Source: Alphaproteobacteria bacterium (lineage in GTDB: Bacteria > Pseudomonadota > Alphaproteobacteria > Rs-D84). Taken from it: 64,000 nucleotides of DNA. The stretch is taken from assembly GCA_017629245.1 (NCBI GenBank), contig JAGBXO010000003.1:1897-65896 (forward strand), written 5' to 3'. Shown piece by piece: positions 56,141-60,818 of the stretch. How positions within the stretch are numbered: the stretch's first letter is position 1; every line of letters starts with the position of its first letter. The translations under genes and the position numbers were made by a program. The notes under the pieces were generated by a model. The model had not been told where the DNA came from and did not search any database. It saw only the letters and a program-made list of their open reading frames with translations.

Positions 56141-58573
56141 TCAGAACATTGGCGGGAAACAGTCGCCACCGGCCTCGGGGCAACAGTTGAAGCCTTGTTC
56201 GCCCATATCGGTATATATTTCCCCGGTACAGCATCCGTTTGCATCAGGTTCCGTCCCATCCAGACACAGTAACACCTCTGCTGCGGCCTCTGGTGCGGCC
56301 TCTGGCGCAGATGCGTACGGATTTTGCACCGTACCATCTTCGTTATACTGAACCCCCAGAATTTGTTCTTTAAATTCCTGAGAATCTGGTCCCCCCAGTT
56401 CCTGAACTTTGTTATCGTATTGTTGTTTTTGGTCTGCCTGATAAGCCTTGAATTGCAAATCTTTCTTTGATTCATAATTCAACGAGTCGCACCATAGCTT
56501 CAATGTAGAATATGAATATCCGCCACAGGTATTTAATTTCCCTGTTCCGGCACCAGAACACGCTGTTTTTACTCTCCACAGACCGTTGTCAGGATCCCGT
56601 TCGCAATGTTCCTGTGCCTGGAATTGGCGCGACTGTCCAACCCAACTGCTGTCGTCTGCCGCATATAATCCCATATCTGATTCTTGTATTGTCCGTCTTT
56701 TATCATCACTAAATTCTGCAACGGCGCATTTTTTTCCTGCGTTTTCACTATCTTTTGCCCCACAGGTAATTTGTAAATCAACTGGTGAATAAACGGTAAT
56801 GCGTGTGCCGGCCGCAATTGTAAATGGCGGAATGGTATTGTCCATCATATCAACCATTAATTTTTGCGCAACCTGATTCCATGCGGTAATAATTTCATTC
56901 TTGGCCAGTTCAGATGAACGCATTGTCCCACTTTGTACAACCGTGTTATTATCCAAATCAATCTGATTAACAAACGCATCTGCCACCGGATTAATCAGAT
57001 TAATTGCCGCCGGCACAAATGCGGTCAGCATTGGCATAAAGAATTGTTCCAGGTAATCTGAACTGCCGCGTCCTGGCACGCCCAAACGTCCCTGTGAATC
57101 CGCTGAATATGGGTCGTTGTCTCCGGGAAAGTTAAATTCTACACCGTCTGGACGAATAAATTGGTACCACTTTACCTGCATGCGACCAATTGTTTTATAT
57201 GGTCCTGGAACCTCGCCATGAACATAACCTAACAACAGTGTACCTGTTGGAATAATAACTGTGCGACCGTTATCAGAATAGACATTTCTGTCCACTGTTG
57301 CGCGTACGGGAACGCCCATCTGCAACGCGTCAATATCTGCGCGTATATCAGAAACAATTGTCGCAGGAATCGGTTTAAATTGGCGCAGGATAAATGTTCT
57401 GTCGTATGGCGCGCTAGATGTGACGACATTGCCATCGGTTGTCCCAAAAATAACACCGGTTTCCTTGGCTTTTTCTATCCCATTAAACACCGAAGACATC
57501 CCGCCTGTGCTAAACCGGCCCATCCCGCCAGACGTGCTGCCACCGGGCGCATCATTCTGTGATGCGCGATGAACAGGCTTGATTGCCGGCACATTTGACA
57601 ATTCTGGCAGTTTGCCTGATGTTATAACTGATGTACCAATATGATCGGCGTCCGTTCCGATTTTTTTCCCGCTGTCATCTGTAATAATGCCATTGTCTGG
57701 ATTATATTTTCCGGCCGGTTTACTGCAGTCTTCGTCATCAAATGTATGAAAATAGTACGCACCACCACTGGGTTTAATCCATCCAATTTGACGACCAGAA
57801 TTATTGTATCCTGGGAATGCAAAGTCTGAACATCCATCCGGTATAATAATTTCCGGTTCTTGGCGCGCTGCGACAGATTTTTTCGGCATTTCAACCGGCG
57901 GGGCCAGTGCGGTCACCTCGCTAATGATTTCTTCCTGAATGGTTTCTGGCTCTTCTTCAAATATTTCCTCTTCAATTTCTTCTTCTTCAACCGGTGCCGG
58001 CTCAGGTTCTGGCTCTGGCACGACGACTGGCTTTGGTGCCGGGGCAGGCATTGGCTTTTCTTCTATCACTGGTGCCACCGCCCCCAGGGTCAGAACAATT
58101 TTGGCTTTCTGTGCCATATCTTCTGATTGATTTGCCTGGTGCCAAACAATTGTCACCGACGTTTGTTTCGTTGGCATTACACTGCTTGGGGCATATGTTG
58201 CAATAATTTCGCATCCTGTTTTTTTATCCAGACGCTTGGTCGCCTTGCATGTATCTTTGACATCAAATCCGCTAATTTCTTCATGTCTTTGAACATTATC
58301 AATTATAACCGGGGCGGTCGCAGAAATAGTAATTTTTTCTGTCTTTTTTTCGCCAACAATCACATCGGCCCAGTTAACCATATCGGGATTTATCTTCAAT
58401 TCCGCCGCCGCTGCATTTGTCGCTGCAATTTCTTTGTTATTGTCGCCCTTGCCACCAACCAGTATCGTCAGTAATATCAGCACGACAACAAATGCCGCCC
58501 CCAGCAACAGCCATTGAATATGGCGTGGCATATTTTTACGCATTTCTGAAATTTGCTGTTTAAATTTACTCAT
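56141..58573 (-). CDS. virB10: type IV secretion system protein VirB10/TrbI with a Pro/Glu-rich spacer and a roughly 250-aa Cys-rich C-terminal extension
   Basis: Start at MSKFKQQ (cat at 58571-58573). TM 'WLLLGAAFVVVLILLTILVG'. 'PAPAPKPVVVPEPEPEPAPVEEEEIEEE' spacer. Conserved VirB10 core 'RTFILRQFKPIPATIVSDIRADIDAL...VIIPTGTLLLGYV...VKWYQFIRPDGVEF...LEQFFMPMLTAF'. The core is then followed by about 250 aa containing 17 Cys, ending 'NGCCTGEIYTDMGEQGFNCCPEAGGDCFPPMF'. Confidence 0.8.
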   Translation of the reverse strand: MSKFKQQISEMRKNMPRHIQWLLLGAAFVVVLILLTILVGGKGDNNKEIAATNAAAAELKINPDMVNWADVIVGEKKTEKITISATAPVIIDNVQRHEEISGFDVKDTCKATKRLDKKTGCEIIATYAPSSVMPTKQTSVTIVWHQANQSEDMAQKAKIVLTLGAVAPVIEEKPMPAPAPKPVVVPEPEPEPAPVEEEEIEEEIFEEEPETIQEEIISEVTALAPPVEMPKKSVAARQEPEIIIPDGCSDFAFPGYNNSGRQIGWIKPSGGAYYFHTFDDEDCSKPAGKYNPDNGIITDDSGKKIGTDADHIGTSVITSGKLPELSNVPAIKPVHRASQNDAPGGSTSGGMGRFSTGGMSSVFNGIEKAKETGVIFGTTDGNVVTSSAPYDRTFILRQFKPIPATIVSDIRADIDALQMGVPVRATVDRNVYSDNGRTVIIPTGTLLLGYVHGEVPGPYKTIGRMQVKWYQFIRPDGVEFNFPGDNDPYSADSQGRLGVPGRGSSDYLEQFFMPMLTAFVPAAINLINPVADAFVNQIDLDNNTVVQSGTMRSSELAKNEIITAWNQVAQKLMVDMMDNTIPPFTIAAGTRITVYSPVDLQITCGAKDSENAGKKCAVAEFSDDKRRTIQESDMGLYAADDSSWVGQSRQFQAQEHCERDPDNGLWRVKTACSGAGTGKLNTCGGYSYSTLKLWCDSLNYESKKDLQFKAYQADQKQQYDNKVQELGGPDSQEFKEQILGVQYNEDGTVQNPYASAPEAAPEAAAEVLLCLDGTEPDANGCCTGEIYTDMGEQGFNCCPEAGGDCFPPMF

Positions 58574-58589
58574 CCCCCAAACCCGTTTT

Positions 58590-60116: not shown

Positions 60117-60137
60117 CTTACCAATCCTTCCGTATCC

Positions 60138-60818
60138 TTACATTTGTTCTGCTGTGCGAAATCCAGTGCTTAATGGATCGCCGTCCCCTTCTACAATTGT
60201 ATATTCGCTAACGCGCAATCCTAACGGGTTGTCAATGCGGTCAACCCACTTTATCTGTTTGTTTGCATCCGCATCCAGAACAATTTTGATTGTATAATCT
60301 TTTGGTATTGTCTGTCCAGTATTATTATCTGTACAGAAATAGCGGATCTTTACCTGGTACGCATCATCGCGACTCATATAAATAGGAGCCCCTATAAAAT
60401 TGACTGGGCATTGAAAATCAAAACCTGGCATGCCACTCATGATAGAAAAGAACATGTCTGTTTCTGCAAATTTTTTATATACTTCGTCTGTTGACATTTT
60501 GCGAACAATGCCATCTTCAGCGTTCCATTTGCTTTGCATAACAACAGGGTTTGTAAAGACCTCGTTTCTGTGGCGTACATATTCGCGCACGAATGCTGTC
60601 TTATAATCTTCCAGGTTGTTATCAACTGGTGGCATTTCAATCAGTTTTACATCCAAGTTGTCACGAATTTCGGTTGTTAAAAAGAAAATCTGTGGGCGAT
60701 TTAATGGAAACATATTTATCAAAGTCATCGTCAACGCGACCAGCACAACAACTGCTGTTGCTAATACGAATGTCATCAGTCTGGATAGTAAAACTGGTGG
60801 TTCTACGCGTCTTTGCAC
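60138..60818 (-). CDS. virB8: type IV secretion system protein VirB8
   Basis: Single TM 'LMTFVLATAVVVLVALTMTLI' plus an NTF2-like periplasmic domain ('FVREYVRHRNEVFTNP...YQVKIRYF'). Start proposed at GTG (60816-60818) preceded by AGGGGGAG. The ATG at 60902 is the alternative. Confidence 0.65.
   Translation of the reverse strand: MQRRVEPPVLLSRLMTFVLATAVVVLVALTMTLINMFPLNRPQIFFLTTEIRDNLDVKLIEMPPVDNNLEDYKTAFVREYVRHRNEVFTNPVVMQSKWNAEDGIVRKMSTDEVYKKFAETDMFFSIMSGMPGFDFQCPVNFIGAPIYMSRDDAYQVKIRYFCTDNNTGQTIPKDYTIKIVLDADANKQIKWVDRIDNPLGLRVSEYTIVEGDGDPLSTGFRTAEQM

What the first reader, a model, noticed from the sequence alone, without database searches (positions are those of the whole stretch)
56141..60818. 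virB8-virB9-virB10 operon ends in a terminator with no virB11/virD4, and is uncoupled from the VirB6 array 40 kb away
The three structural core genes are contiguous (22- and 17-nt gaps). Immediately after virB10 is a strong hairpin, then unrelated ORFs. The secretion ATPases must be encoded elsewhere or be absent. Absence would imply a non-canonical or non-translocating use of the core complex.
Basis: partly seen in the sequence, partly recalled or inferred. Interest (0 to 1): 0.6.

Follow-up and report, generated by a model that had tools for sequence, protein, structure and literature searches.

The report
Split-up type IV secretion genes
This is the outer-shell operon (virB8-virB9-virB10) of a type IV secretion machine in a tiny-genome gut bacterium (Candidatus Enterousia). 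The motor genes that seemed to be missing are not lost: close relatives carry virB11 and virD4 as stand-alone genes elsewhere on the chromosome.

Summary
On the minus strand, virB8 (60138-60818), virB9 (58590-60116) and virB10 (56141-58573) lie 21 and 16 nt apart. They sit behind a conserved sigma-70-type promoter and end in an intrinsic terminator (56135-56118). No T4SS ATPase lies in the 64 kb window or within 10 kb of either end.

The organism belongs to Candidatus Enterousia (order Rs-D84), with genomes of about 0.9 Mb. The same layout recurs in 80 species, and the terminator keeps its position while its stem sequence varies.

The "ATPases absent" reading is not supported. A strongly conserved orphan virB11 family (82-96% identical among most members) exists in this clade. 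One copy carries the NCBI locus-tag prefix IIV74. The contig with that MAG's VirB6-like array also carries a 749-aa virD4 two genes away. In the nearest outgroup, virB11 still directly follows virB10. VirB4 could not be located with the tools allowed, and virB11/virD4 were not shown in this genome itself.

The "VirB6 array" is five paralogous membrane proteins. No family model matches them, but weak fold and profile evidence points to VirB6.

Verdict: a Rickettsiales-style scattered T4SS in a new lineage, with unusual additions. It is a new variant of a known kind, of moderate interest.

The parts
60138..60818 (-). virB8 (226 aa, GTG start)
   Evidence: Pfam VirB8 30.9 bits, E 3e-7. The GTG start, the AAGGGGGAGA RBS and the upstream promoter are conserved in about 20 aligned species.
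60846..60874 (-). conserved sigma-70-type promoter of the operon (CTTGCA-N17-TCTACAAT, with a T-rich upstream tract)
   Evidence: Promoter scan. Alignment of virB8 upstream regions from 21 species shows both hexamers nearly invariant.
58590..60116 (-). virB9 (508 aa), with signal peptide and a long C-terminal extension ending in a SPOR-like domain
   Evidence: Pfam CagX 84.8 bits; SPOR 18.6 bits, below cutoff. 33% identical to Microvirga pMVF16-3 VirB9 (E 6e-48) and 32-46% to sister and outgroup VirB9. Nearest solved structure is Xanthomonas VirB9, 6GYB.
56141..58573 (-). virB10 (810 aa): short cytoplasmic N-terminus, TM helix, beta-sandwich-like domain, Pro/Glu-rich linker, TrbI core, then a roughly 200-aa Cys-rich C-terminal extension
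   Evidence: Pfam TrbI 66.8 bits; NCBIfam T4SS_VirB10 62 bits. 895 homologues, the top 120 all full length. The core and the C-terminal module are invariant in alignment A1.
56144..56260 (-). C-terminal Cys-rich module of VirB10 (...PDANGCCTGEIYTDMGEQGFNCCPEAGGDCFPPMF-COOH)
   Evidence: Invariant in A1. The same module ends other Enterousia proteins, both secreted and membrane-bound. It is absent from sister-lineage VirB10.
56108..56135 (-). intrinsic terminator ending the operon (7-bp stem with 6 G-C pairs, 4-nt loop, T-run)
   Evidence: Positionally conserved with varying stem sequence in 56 of 80 species within 60 nt.
56041..56058 (-). second terminator-like hairpin in the virB10-orf114 spacer
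   Evidence: Many species have a second hairpin 100-135 nt after the stop. No Rfam family matches the spacer.
55500..55844 (-). orf114: conserved cytoplasmic protein of unknown function that follows virB10
   Evidence: Present in 75 of 80 species. 70% mean column identity, with invariant WFWFLYS and RAPH motifs. No hit in Pfam, NCBIfam, PHROGs or PDB.
55066..55458 (-). orf130: conserved small protein of unknown function with invariant His24 and Cys85
   Evidence: Present in 71 of 80 species. No family hit. A permuted papain-like fold is my guess only and was not tested.
9542..14800 (-). four tandem paralogous polytopic membrane proteins (429, 498, 399 and 423 aa): the 'VirB6 array'
   Evidence: Paralogy shown in alignment A2. 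No Pfam, NCBIfam or PDB sequence hit. The top PDB Foldseek hits of the AF2 model (pLDDT 68.6) are TrwI/VirB6 of R388, with prob 0.94-0.95, E 0.02-0.1 and TM 0.23-0.41. hhalign of A2 against a 10-sequence VirB6 profile gives Prob 80% in global mode and 47% in local mode. The array lies two genes from virD4 in a congener.
14869..16167 (+). fifth paralogue, divergently transcribed (start codon uncertain)
   Evidence: Alignment A2. 74% identical to its L182 orthologue.
16236..16745 (+). orf169: conserved companion of the array, function unknown
   Evidence: 85% identical to its L182 counterpart. Found in the same position in L181, L182 and L185.
61053..61126 (+). tRNA-Trp, marking the start of the divergent secE-nusG-rplKAJL block (boundary of the locus)
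   Evidence: ARAGORN and Rfam.

Best explanation
The three genes are the envelope-spanning core-complex operon of a chromosomal, VirB-like (P-type) type IV secretion system whose genes are scattered over at least four loci in Candidatus Enterousia.

The operon is its own transcription unit. It has a conserved sigma-70-type promoter, a strong RBS, tight gene spacing and an intrinsic terminator.

The cytoplasmic ATPases are encoded elsewhere, not lost. virB11 was moved from its ancestral place directly after virB10 to a stand-alone locus. virD4 is another stand-alone gene. Five VirB6-like paralogues form a separate array.

Once made, the parts are expected to assemble into one machine:
- VirB8 and the VirB10 N-terminus in the inner membrane, with the VirB6-like proteins.
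- VirB9 and VirB10 forming the outer-membrane channel.
- VirB11 and VirD4, and presumably VirB4, supplying the energy.

For a bacterium that lacks most biosynthesis, the machine most likely acts on a partner or host cell.

Shown: gene identities, operon anatomy, conservation across species, and virB11 and virD4 elsewhere in congeners.
Inferred: their presence in this genome, the presence of virB4, joint assembly, and the biological role.
For: - Family matches for VirB8, VirB9 and VirB10.
- The order nusG | virB8-virB9-virB10-orf114-orf130 | yidC is identical in nearly all of 80 species.
- The promoter and the terminator are both conserved.
- Strong purifying selection: the VirB10 core is almost invariant although overall identity is 52-60%.
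- Sister lineages carry the same isolated virB8-9-10 module in other chromosomal neighbourhoods.
- The nearest outgroup has virB8-virB9-virB10(2287 aa)-virB11 contiguous.
- An orphan virB11 family is 51-54% identical to the outgroup's VirB11. Its best NCBIfam match is TIGR02788 VirB11 (149.6 bits, full length), and its Walker A, Asp and His boxes are intact. It has no virB8/9/10 within 10 kb, is 82-96% identical among most members and sits on contigs of up to 947 kb.
- Locus-tag link: the VirB11 fragment IIV74_04010 and the array-protein orthologue IIV74_03445 come from one MAG.
- That MAG's array contig carries VirD4: Pfam T4SS-DNA_transf, TrwB_AAD_bind and TraG-D_C; 426 bits to my VirD4 HMM; 32% identical to Microvirga VirD4. 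Its array proteins are 54-74% identical to the window's.
- CorA and KsgA identities place the virB11 loci in or near Enterousia.
Against: - Neither virB11 nor virD4 was shown in the genome this window comes from. No accession near MBO5739685 was recovered.
- virD4 was seen in one species only. It is not next to the array in three others (window, L181, L185).
- VirB4, the one ATPase universal to T4SS, was not found in any locus in hand: 1.9 Mb, highly redundant, perhaps 15-20% of the positions of a genome.
- No VirB2, VirB3, VirB5 or VirB7 was recognised in the window.
- The VirB6 assignment is weak.
- The published genome survey of Rs-D84 does not mention a T4SS (PMC12306168).
Confidence: 0.78

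Rival explanations
1. A secretion system without the usual substrate-recruiting step, working in two steps like Bordetella Ptl. Proteins are exported to the periplasm by Sec and then pushed out through the VirB9/VirB10 channel. The Cys-rich C-terminal module shared by VirB10 and a set of signal-peptide-bearing proteins would serve as the docking or recognition element. VirD4 would be dispensable or lineage-specific.
For: - The module ...NGCCxGExYTDMGxxGFNCCPxxGGDCFPPx-COOH ends VirB10 and also several small secreted proteins, sometimes in tandem copies, plus a lipoprotein and a membrane protein.
- virD4 was seen in only one of four species whose array neighbourhood was inspected.
- Large secreted Cys-rich proteins recur next to T4SS loci.
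Against: - A canonical VirD4 does exist in the clade.
- No link between the module and secretion has been shown. It could equally be a surface-binding or structural domain.
- The contexts of two module-bearing genes show no T4SS genes.
Confidence: 0.12
2. A DNA-uptake machine of the ComB type, which would feed nucleotides to a cell that cannot make them. It would use VirB8-10, VirB6-like proteins and VirB4 only.
For: - NCBIfam ComB10 match of 53 bits.
- Rs-D84 genomes lack nucleotide biosynthesis (PMC12306168).
- dprA lies next to the module in one sister lineage.
- The ComB genes of Helicobacter are likewise split into two loci and lack virB11 and virD4 (my knowledge).
Against: - The clade keeps a highly conserved virB11 and, in at least one species, virD4. 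ComB systems lack both.
- The VirB10 model scores higher than ComB10.
- The dprA adjacency was seen only once.
Confidence: 0.06
3. An ATPase-less or degenerate remnant. The core complex would persist as a passive envelope channel, an adhesin scaffold or a cell-cell junction. The orphan virB11 and virD4 would be unrelated leftovers.
For: - No ATPase gene lies beside any of the three structural loci in about 90 genomes.
- VirB4 was not found.
- VirB9 and VirB10 carry unusual additions: a SPOR-like domain and a Cys-rich tail.
Against: - virB11 is more conserved than virB10 (82-96% against 52-60% identity), with intact catalytic motifs. That does not fit a leftover.
- VirB8 and the invariant cytoplasmic N-terminus of VirB10 point to a working inner-membrane part.
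- No T4SS without VirB4 is known (my knowledge).
Confidence: 0.04

Closest known systems
Rickettsiales vir homolog (rvh) T4SS
   Same: Chromosomal P-type T4SS of a reduced-genome alphaproteobacterium. Genes are scattered in several islands, there is an array of multiple VirB6-like paralogues, and no mobile-element context.
   Different: In rvh (my knowledge), virB8-virB9-virB10-virB11-virD4 stay together and virB3-virB4 head the VirB6 array. Here both links are broken. The VirB6-like proteins are short (400-500 aa) and match no TrbL/VirB6 model. No duplicated virB8 or virB9 was seen. The host is Rs-D84 (NCBI: Alphaproteobacteria incertae sedis), not Rickettsiales. Sequence relatedness to rvh proteins could not be tested because no rvh sequences were available.
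T4SS of Microvirga sp. VF16 plasmid pMVF16-3 (NZ_CP069357.1, 671-686 kb)
   Same: The closest complete system found. It shares the long VirB9 (550 aa; 33% identical, E 6e-48, against 19% for Agrobacterium pAt VirB9). VirB8 is 26% identical. VirB11 is 41-42% and VirD4 32% identical to the Enterousia-clade proteins.
   Different: One contiguous plasmid operon: virB2-B3-B4-...-B8-B9-B10-B11-...-virD4 with a relaxase nearby. Its VirB10 is 590 aa without the Cys-rich tail, and it has no paralogue array.
Unnamed gut-metagenome lineage with a giant VirB10 (L095/L096 and JGI loci L101-L115)
   Same: Nearest outgroup. VirB9 is 32% identical over its full length, including the SPOR-like end. Its VirB11 is 51-54% identical to the clade's orphan VirB11.
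   Different: virB11 still directly follows virB10. VirB10 is 2100-2400 aa with Bflower/RHS-like repeats. It has two virB8 copies, a VirB7-like lipoprotein and seven secreted ORFs upstream.
Bordetella Ptl and Helicobacter ComB systems (T4SS lacking VirD4, or lacking VirB11 and VirD4)
   Same: Precedents showing that a VirB-type machine can work without the full ATPase set, and that it can be split into two loci (ComB).
   Different: The Enterousia clade has both virB11 and, in at least one species, virD4. It is therefore not of either reduced type as far as could be tested.

Membership tests
P-type (VirB/VirD4-like) type IV secretion system | VirB8 homologue | tested here: met
   Pfam PF04335 30.9 bits against a 23.2 cutoff.
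P-type (VirB/VirD4-like) type IV secretion system | VirB9 homologue | tested here: met
   Pfam CagX 84.8 bits against a 34.2 cutoff. TIGR02781 VirB9 scores 55.5 bits, below the equivalog cutoff.
P-type (VirB/VirD4-like) type IV secretion system | VirB10 homologue with an N-terminal TM segment and a C-terminal TrbI barrel domain | tested here: met
   Pfam TrbI 66.8 bits against a 35 cutoff. The TM helix is visible at residues 18-40.
P-type (VirB/VirD4-like) type IV secretion system | VirB4 ATPase (universal to T4SS) | not testable with these tools
   Absent from the window, from 10 kb on each side and from all loci fetched. The whole genome could not be read.
P-type (VirB/VirD4-like) type IV secretion system | VirB11 ATPase | tested here: inconclusive
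   Not in the window. Present as an orphan gene in the clade, including MAG IIV74, which also has the array. Not shown in this genome.
P-type (VirB/VirD4-like) type IV secretion system | VirD4 coupling protein | tested here: inconclusive
   Not in the window. Present in congener L182, two genes from the array. Not seen next to the array in L181 or L185.
P-type (VirB/VirD4-like) type IV secretion system | VirB6/TrbL polytopic inner-membrane protein | tested here: inconclusive
   No Pfam or NCBIfam hit. Top Foldseek hits are TrwI/VirB6, with prob 0.94-0.95 but TM only 0.23-0.41. hhalign Prob 80% global and 47% local.
P-type (VirB/VirD4-like) type IV secretion system | Pilin and small components (VirB2, VirB3, VirB5, VirB7) | tested here: not met
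   tblastn with Agrobacterium VirB2/B3/B5 and Microvirga VirB2/B3 plus its 58-aa VirB7-position ORF found none in the window. There is no small lipoprotein ORF upstream of virB8. VirB7-like lipoproteins exist in the sister lineage and the outgroup. The test has low power for such short proteins.
Rickettsiales vir homolog (rvh) | T4SS genes scattered in several chromosomal islands | tested here: met
   virB8-10, the array, virB11 and virD4 lie at four separate places.
Rickettsiales vir homolog (rvh) | virB8-virB9-virB10-virB11-virD4 kept as one island | tested here: not met
   A terminator follows virB10. No ATPase lies within 10 kb in 80 species.
Rickettsiales vir homolog (rvh) | Array of VirB6 paralogues headed by virB3-virB4 | tested here: not met
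   The array is present, but no virB3 or virB4 lies beside it in the window, L181, L182 or L185.
Rickettsiales vir homolog (rvh) | Sequence-level orthology to rvh proteins, and host in Rickettsiales | not tested
   No rvh sequences were available. NCBI places Ca. Enterousia in Alphaproteobacteria incertae sedis, and GTDB in order Rs-D84 (PMC12306168).
ComB-type DNA-uptake T4SS | Lacks VirB11 and VirD4 | tested here: not met
   The clade encodes both.

The most novel reading that the evidence does not exclude
Enterousia would run a T4SS with no detectable VirB4, or one in which VirD4 is optional. The Cys-rich C-terminal module that caps VirB10 would then double as an address tag on a family of Sec-exported proteins. 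That would give a two-step, Ptl-like export route built around a lineage-specific recognition domain.
Probability: 0.1. Interest if true: 0.8.

Novelty: new variant of a known kind. Interest (0 to 1): 0.42.

Why it matters
Candidatus Enterousia and its order Rs-D84 are widespread gut bacteria. Their genomes are under 1 Mb, and they lack respiration and most biosynthesis. They are therefore suspected of living off another cell (PMC12306168). How they touch that partner is unknown, and the genome survey does not mention a secretion system.

A conserved T4SS gives a concrete candidate for that interface. Its core operon is wedged between ribosomal-protein genes and yidC.

It also shows that extreme scattering of T4SS genes and multiplication of VirB6-like genes may not be confined to Rickettsiales. 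Both features are usually treated as a Rickettsiales hallmark.

For genome scanning the lesson is practical. A terminator after virB10 does not mean the motors are missing.

Tried and rejected
1. Pfam, NCBIfam, PHROGs and PDB sequence searches gave nothing for the array proteins, orf114 or orf130.
2. AlphaFold on the five-paralogue alignment was useless (pLDDT 39). The 119-sequence alignment gave a usable model.
3. hhalign against single VirB6 sequences found nothing. Only a 10-sequence VirB6 profile gave a signal.
5. tblastn with Agrobacterium ATPases, then with Microvirga ATPases, found nothing near virB10 in any species.
Proteins from fetched loci cannot be looked up.
7. Literature searches for Enterousia or Rs-D84 with secretion terms found no description of a T4SS. 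One key paper and the supplements were not held.
8. Matching 'longest contig' lengths between the VirB11, VirB10 and array hit lists gave no shared contig.
9. Accession-number proximity failed for this window's own MAG (MBO5739685) but worked for MAG IIV74.
10. IMG/VR does not contain the clade's virB11, so it was not scanned for VirB4.
11. The 761-aa ORF after the array in L181 was tested as a possible VirB4. It is a secreted Cys-rich protein instead.
12. No shared operator was seen between the virB8 and virB11 promoters.
13. The small ORFs after virB10 in sister lineages are not detectably related to orf114 or orf130.
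Full report
**What is there**

On the minus strand the window carries three tightly spaced genes.
- virB8, 60138-60818: GTG start preceded by AAGGGGGAG; Pfam VirB8 30.9 bits.
- virB9, 58590-60116: Pfam CagX 84.8 bits.
- virB10, 56141-58573: Pfam TrbI 66.8 bits.

The gaps are 21 and 16 nt. Six nucleotides after the virB10 stop comes ACCCGCC-AATT-GGCGGGT followed by TTGTTTTTTT (56135-56118). This is one of the two strongest terminator-like sites in the 7.5 kb scanned. The scan itself is noisy: 19 sites were found against 8.6 expected. The hairpin alone would therefore prove little. Its conservation does.

Upstream of virB8 lie a promoter-like site (60874-60846), then tRNA-Trp (61053-61126) and the divergent secE-nusG-rplKAJL-rpoBC block. 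Downstream come a 296-nt spacer, two small ORFs (orf114 and orf130), a Stealth-domain fragment, and then the convergent yidC-lspA-kefB genes.

**Whose genome it is**

The exact proteins occur on ruminant-gut metagenome contigs and in an NCBI MAG. VirB10 is MBO5739685.1, J6R52_01300. A scan of one genome per species found 247 relatives of VirB10. The 80 best are MAGs labelled Candidatus Enterousia, uncultured Alphaproteobacteria or 'uncultured Rickettsiales'.

Enterousia belongs to GTDB order Rs-D84. Its genomes are 0.75-1.0 Mb. They have no respiration or TCA cycle and lack most biosynthesis, so a partner-dependent life is suspected (PMC12306168). That paper does not mention a T4SS, and no other paper in the library does either.

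**Is the operon real and conserved?**

In nearly all 80 species the order is nusG | virB8-virB9-virB10-orf114-orf130 | yidC-lspA-kefB.

- Terminator. In 56 of 80 species a hairpin of -8 kcal/mol or better plus a T-run lies within 60 nt of the virB10 stop, and in nearly all within 140 nt. The stems differ in sequence while keeping their pairing.
- Promoter and start. The promoter CTTGCA-N17-TCTACAAT, the RBS and the GTG start are nearly invariant.
- Selection. The VirB10 core is almost unchanged across proteins that are only 52-60% identical overall.

The ORFs after the hairpin are lineage-conserved neighbours, present in 75 and 71 of 80 species. They are not random unrelated genes. Their function is unknown.

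**Are the ATPases nearby?**

No.
- Pfam on every large ORF in the window found none.
- Ten kb beyond the window end holds rplL-rpoB-rpoC.
- Ten kb before the window start holds unknown ORFs and a gene-free 5.5 kb stretch.
- tblastn with VirB4, VirB11 and VirD4 from two reference plasmids found nothing, and HMMs built from seven VirB4 and seven VirD4 sequences found nothing either. These covered 1.9 Mb of Enterousia-lineage loci, and the controls were positive.

**How the arrangement arose**

A search of representatives clustered at 50% identity reached beyond Enterousia.
- Sister lineages (31-36% identical VirB10) carry the same isolated module, but in other chromosomal neighbourhoods. One has a VirB7-like lipoprotein in front of virB8-virB9-virB10. 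Each has one or two small ORFs after virB10.
- The next outgroup has two virB8 copies, a VirB7-like lipoprotein, virB9 with the same SPOR-like end, a 2287-aa virB10 and, directly after it, virB11.
- The closest complete system in the plasmid collection is on Microvirga pMVF16-3. Its VirB9 is far closer to the window's than Agrobacterium's is: 33% identical with E 6e-48, against 19% with E 0.007.

**Finding virB11**

A scan of JGI metagenomes with a VirB11 alignment, led by the outgroup protein, gave two tiers.
- Tier 1, at 61-77% identity, always sits right after a virB10.
- Tier 2, at 51-54% identity (about 25 loci), stands alone. No virB8, B9, B10, B4 or D4 lies within 10 kb. It sits next to a divergent lipoprotein gene among housekeeping genes.

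Most tier-2 proteins are 82-96% identical to one another, and their Walker A, Asp and His boxes are intact. Their best NCBIfam match is TIGR02788 VirB11 over its full length. At 149.6 bits this is below the equivalog cutoff. PGAP calls these proteins TadA; JGI calls them VirB11. The family has 1270 members in the big protein collection, some on contigs up to 946,946 bp.

The family can be tied to Enterousia in three ways.
- A member (MBQ5700429.1) carries locus tag IIV74_04010. An orthologue of the window's array protein (MBQ5700321.1, 54% identical) carries IIV74_03445. They come from the same MAG.
- A CorA next to one tier-2 virB11 is 85% identical to the CorA on a contig that encodes a protein ending in the Enterousia-specific Cys-rich module.
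- A KsgA next to a more divergent tier-2 virB11 is 62-68% identical to Enterousia KsgA, whereas within Enterousia KsgA is 70-97% identical to the window's.

**Finding virD4**

The array contig of that same MAG (L182) shows the following order: rsmE, a 749-aa protein, suhB, rpmE, the orf169 homologue, then the five-gene array. The 749-aa protein has Pfam T4SS-DNA_transf, TrwB_AAD_bind and TraG-D_C domains. It scores 426 bits against my VirD4 HMM and is 32% identical to Microvirga VirD4. The array proteins on that contig are 54-74% identical to the window's, and orf169 is 85% identical.

In the window and in two other species the position beyond suhB holds other genes. So virD4 moves about, or it is not universal.

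**VirB4**

VirB4 was not found in any locus.

**The 'VirB6 array'**

The array comprises ORFs 9542-10831, 10837-12333, 12333-13532 and 13529-14800 on the minus strand, plus about 14869-16167 on the plus strand. They are paralogues, 16-22% identical, and all are polytopic.
- No family model matches them, and NCBI calls all their orthologues hypothetical.
- An AlphaFold model from 119 orthologues (pLDDT 68.6) has TrwI/VirB6 chains of the R388 T4SS as its top PDB Foldseek hits. Probability is 0.94-0.95, but E is 0.02-0.1 and TM only 0.23-0.41. Unrelated helical proteins score 0.41 or less.
- hhalign of the paralogue profile against a 10-sequence canonical VirB6 profile gives Prob 80% in global mode and 47% in local mode. 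It aligns the conserved Pro-containing transmembrane motif.
- virD4 lies next to the array in one species.

Taken together, I put VirB6 homology at about 70%.

**Unusual features**

- VirB9 carries about 210 extra C-terminal residues ending in a SPOR-like domain.
- VirB10 has an extra beta-sandwich-like N-terminal domain and a roughly 200-aa Cys-rich tail.
- The last ~40 residues of that tail (...NGCCxGExYTDMGxxGFNCCPxxGGDCFPPx) also end several other Enterousia proteins. Most of these have signal peptides, and some carry the module in tandem. Sister-lineage VirB10 lacks it.
- Large secreted Cys-rich proteins recur beside the T4SS loci.

**Conclusion**

The finding is a real, conserved core-complex operon of a scattered VirB-like T4SS. 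The striking reading, a core complex without motors, is not supported. virB11 and virD4 exist as stand-alone genes in congeners, and the outgroup shows where virB11 used to sit.

What remains open:
- Where VirB4 is, or whether it exists.
- Whether virD4 is universal in the genus.
- What the system transports and into what.

The architecture resembles the Rickettsiales rvh system but breaks both of its canonical ATPase linkages, and it occurs in a different order. It is a new variant of a known kind and of moderate interest.

Noticed in passing
window 56144-56260 (minus); proteins P0260, P0174, P0217, P0258, P0269: The last ~40 residues of VirB10 form a six-cysteine module ending in GGDCFPP plus one residue at the C-terminus. 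The same module ends several other Enterousia proteins: small secreted ones (up to three tandem copies), a lipoprotein and a 719-aa membrane protein. It may be a lineage-specific sorting, docking or binding domain.
   Followed up: partly
window 55066-55844 (minus): orf114 (invariant WFWFLYS and RAPH motifs) and orf130 (invariant His24 and Cys85) follow virB10 in 75 and 71 of 80 species, yet match no known family. Sister lineages instead have an unrelated small secreted protein at this position.
   Followed up: partly
window 4476-6686 (+); L181:11332-13617; L022:14935-17211; L097:821-3490: A family of 700-890-aa secreted proteins has an Arg/Thr/Ala-rich N-terminal region and a Cys-rich body. 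Members recur beside the array, beside virB10, or beside a gene bearing the Cys-rich module, in different species. They may be surface or substrate proteins of the system.
   Followed up: partly
L182:677-2926 (ENA XIEF21-1_SAMN15829873 scaffold_232): A canonical 749-aa VirD4 sits alone between rsmE and suhB, two genes from the VirB6-like array, in one Enterousia species. It is not at that position in three others.
   Followed up: yes
L116-L136 (JGI contigs), e.g. L120:1256-2230: The clade's orphan virB11 has a conserved TTGATT...TGATAAAAT promoter. The ATG follows only about 10 nt later with no visible Shine-Dalgarno sequence, which suggests a leaderless or near-leaderless mRNA. A divergent lipoprotein gene is always next to it.
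   Followed up: partly
L095:10001-16864 and JGI loci L101-L115: A related gut lineage has VirB10 proteins of 2100-2400 aa with Bflower/RHS-like repeats. They are preceded by seven secreted ORFs of unknown function and two virB8 copies, and followed directly by virB11.
   Followed up: partly
window 463-1122 and 3134-3757 (+); 1136-1981 (+); 32444-33190 (+): Two paralogous ORFs of unknown function (219 and 207 aa) lie close together. Beside them is a kinase-like ORF, and a second APH-like phosphotransferase ORF lies further along. None has a clear family assignment.
   Followed up: no
L097:3582-7948: On an Enterousia-clade contig, a prepilin-peptidase-like gene (Peptidase_A24, 160 aa) is followed by four ORFs (289, 296, 560 and 105 aa) with no family match. 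This could be a divergent pilus or secretion cluster.
   Followed up: partly
L086:2271-7812 (just upstream of the window start): A 5.5 kb stretch without called genes; an rRNA operon is likely. Not verified.
   Followed up: no
window 54762-55274 (minus): An ORF overlapping the end of orf130 has a weak match to conserved region 4 of Stealth proteins only (25.4 bits, below cutoff). It looks like a gene fragment and is present in only some species.
   Followed up: no
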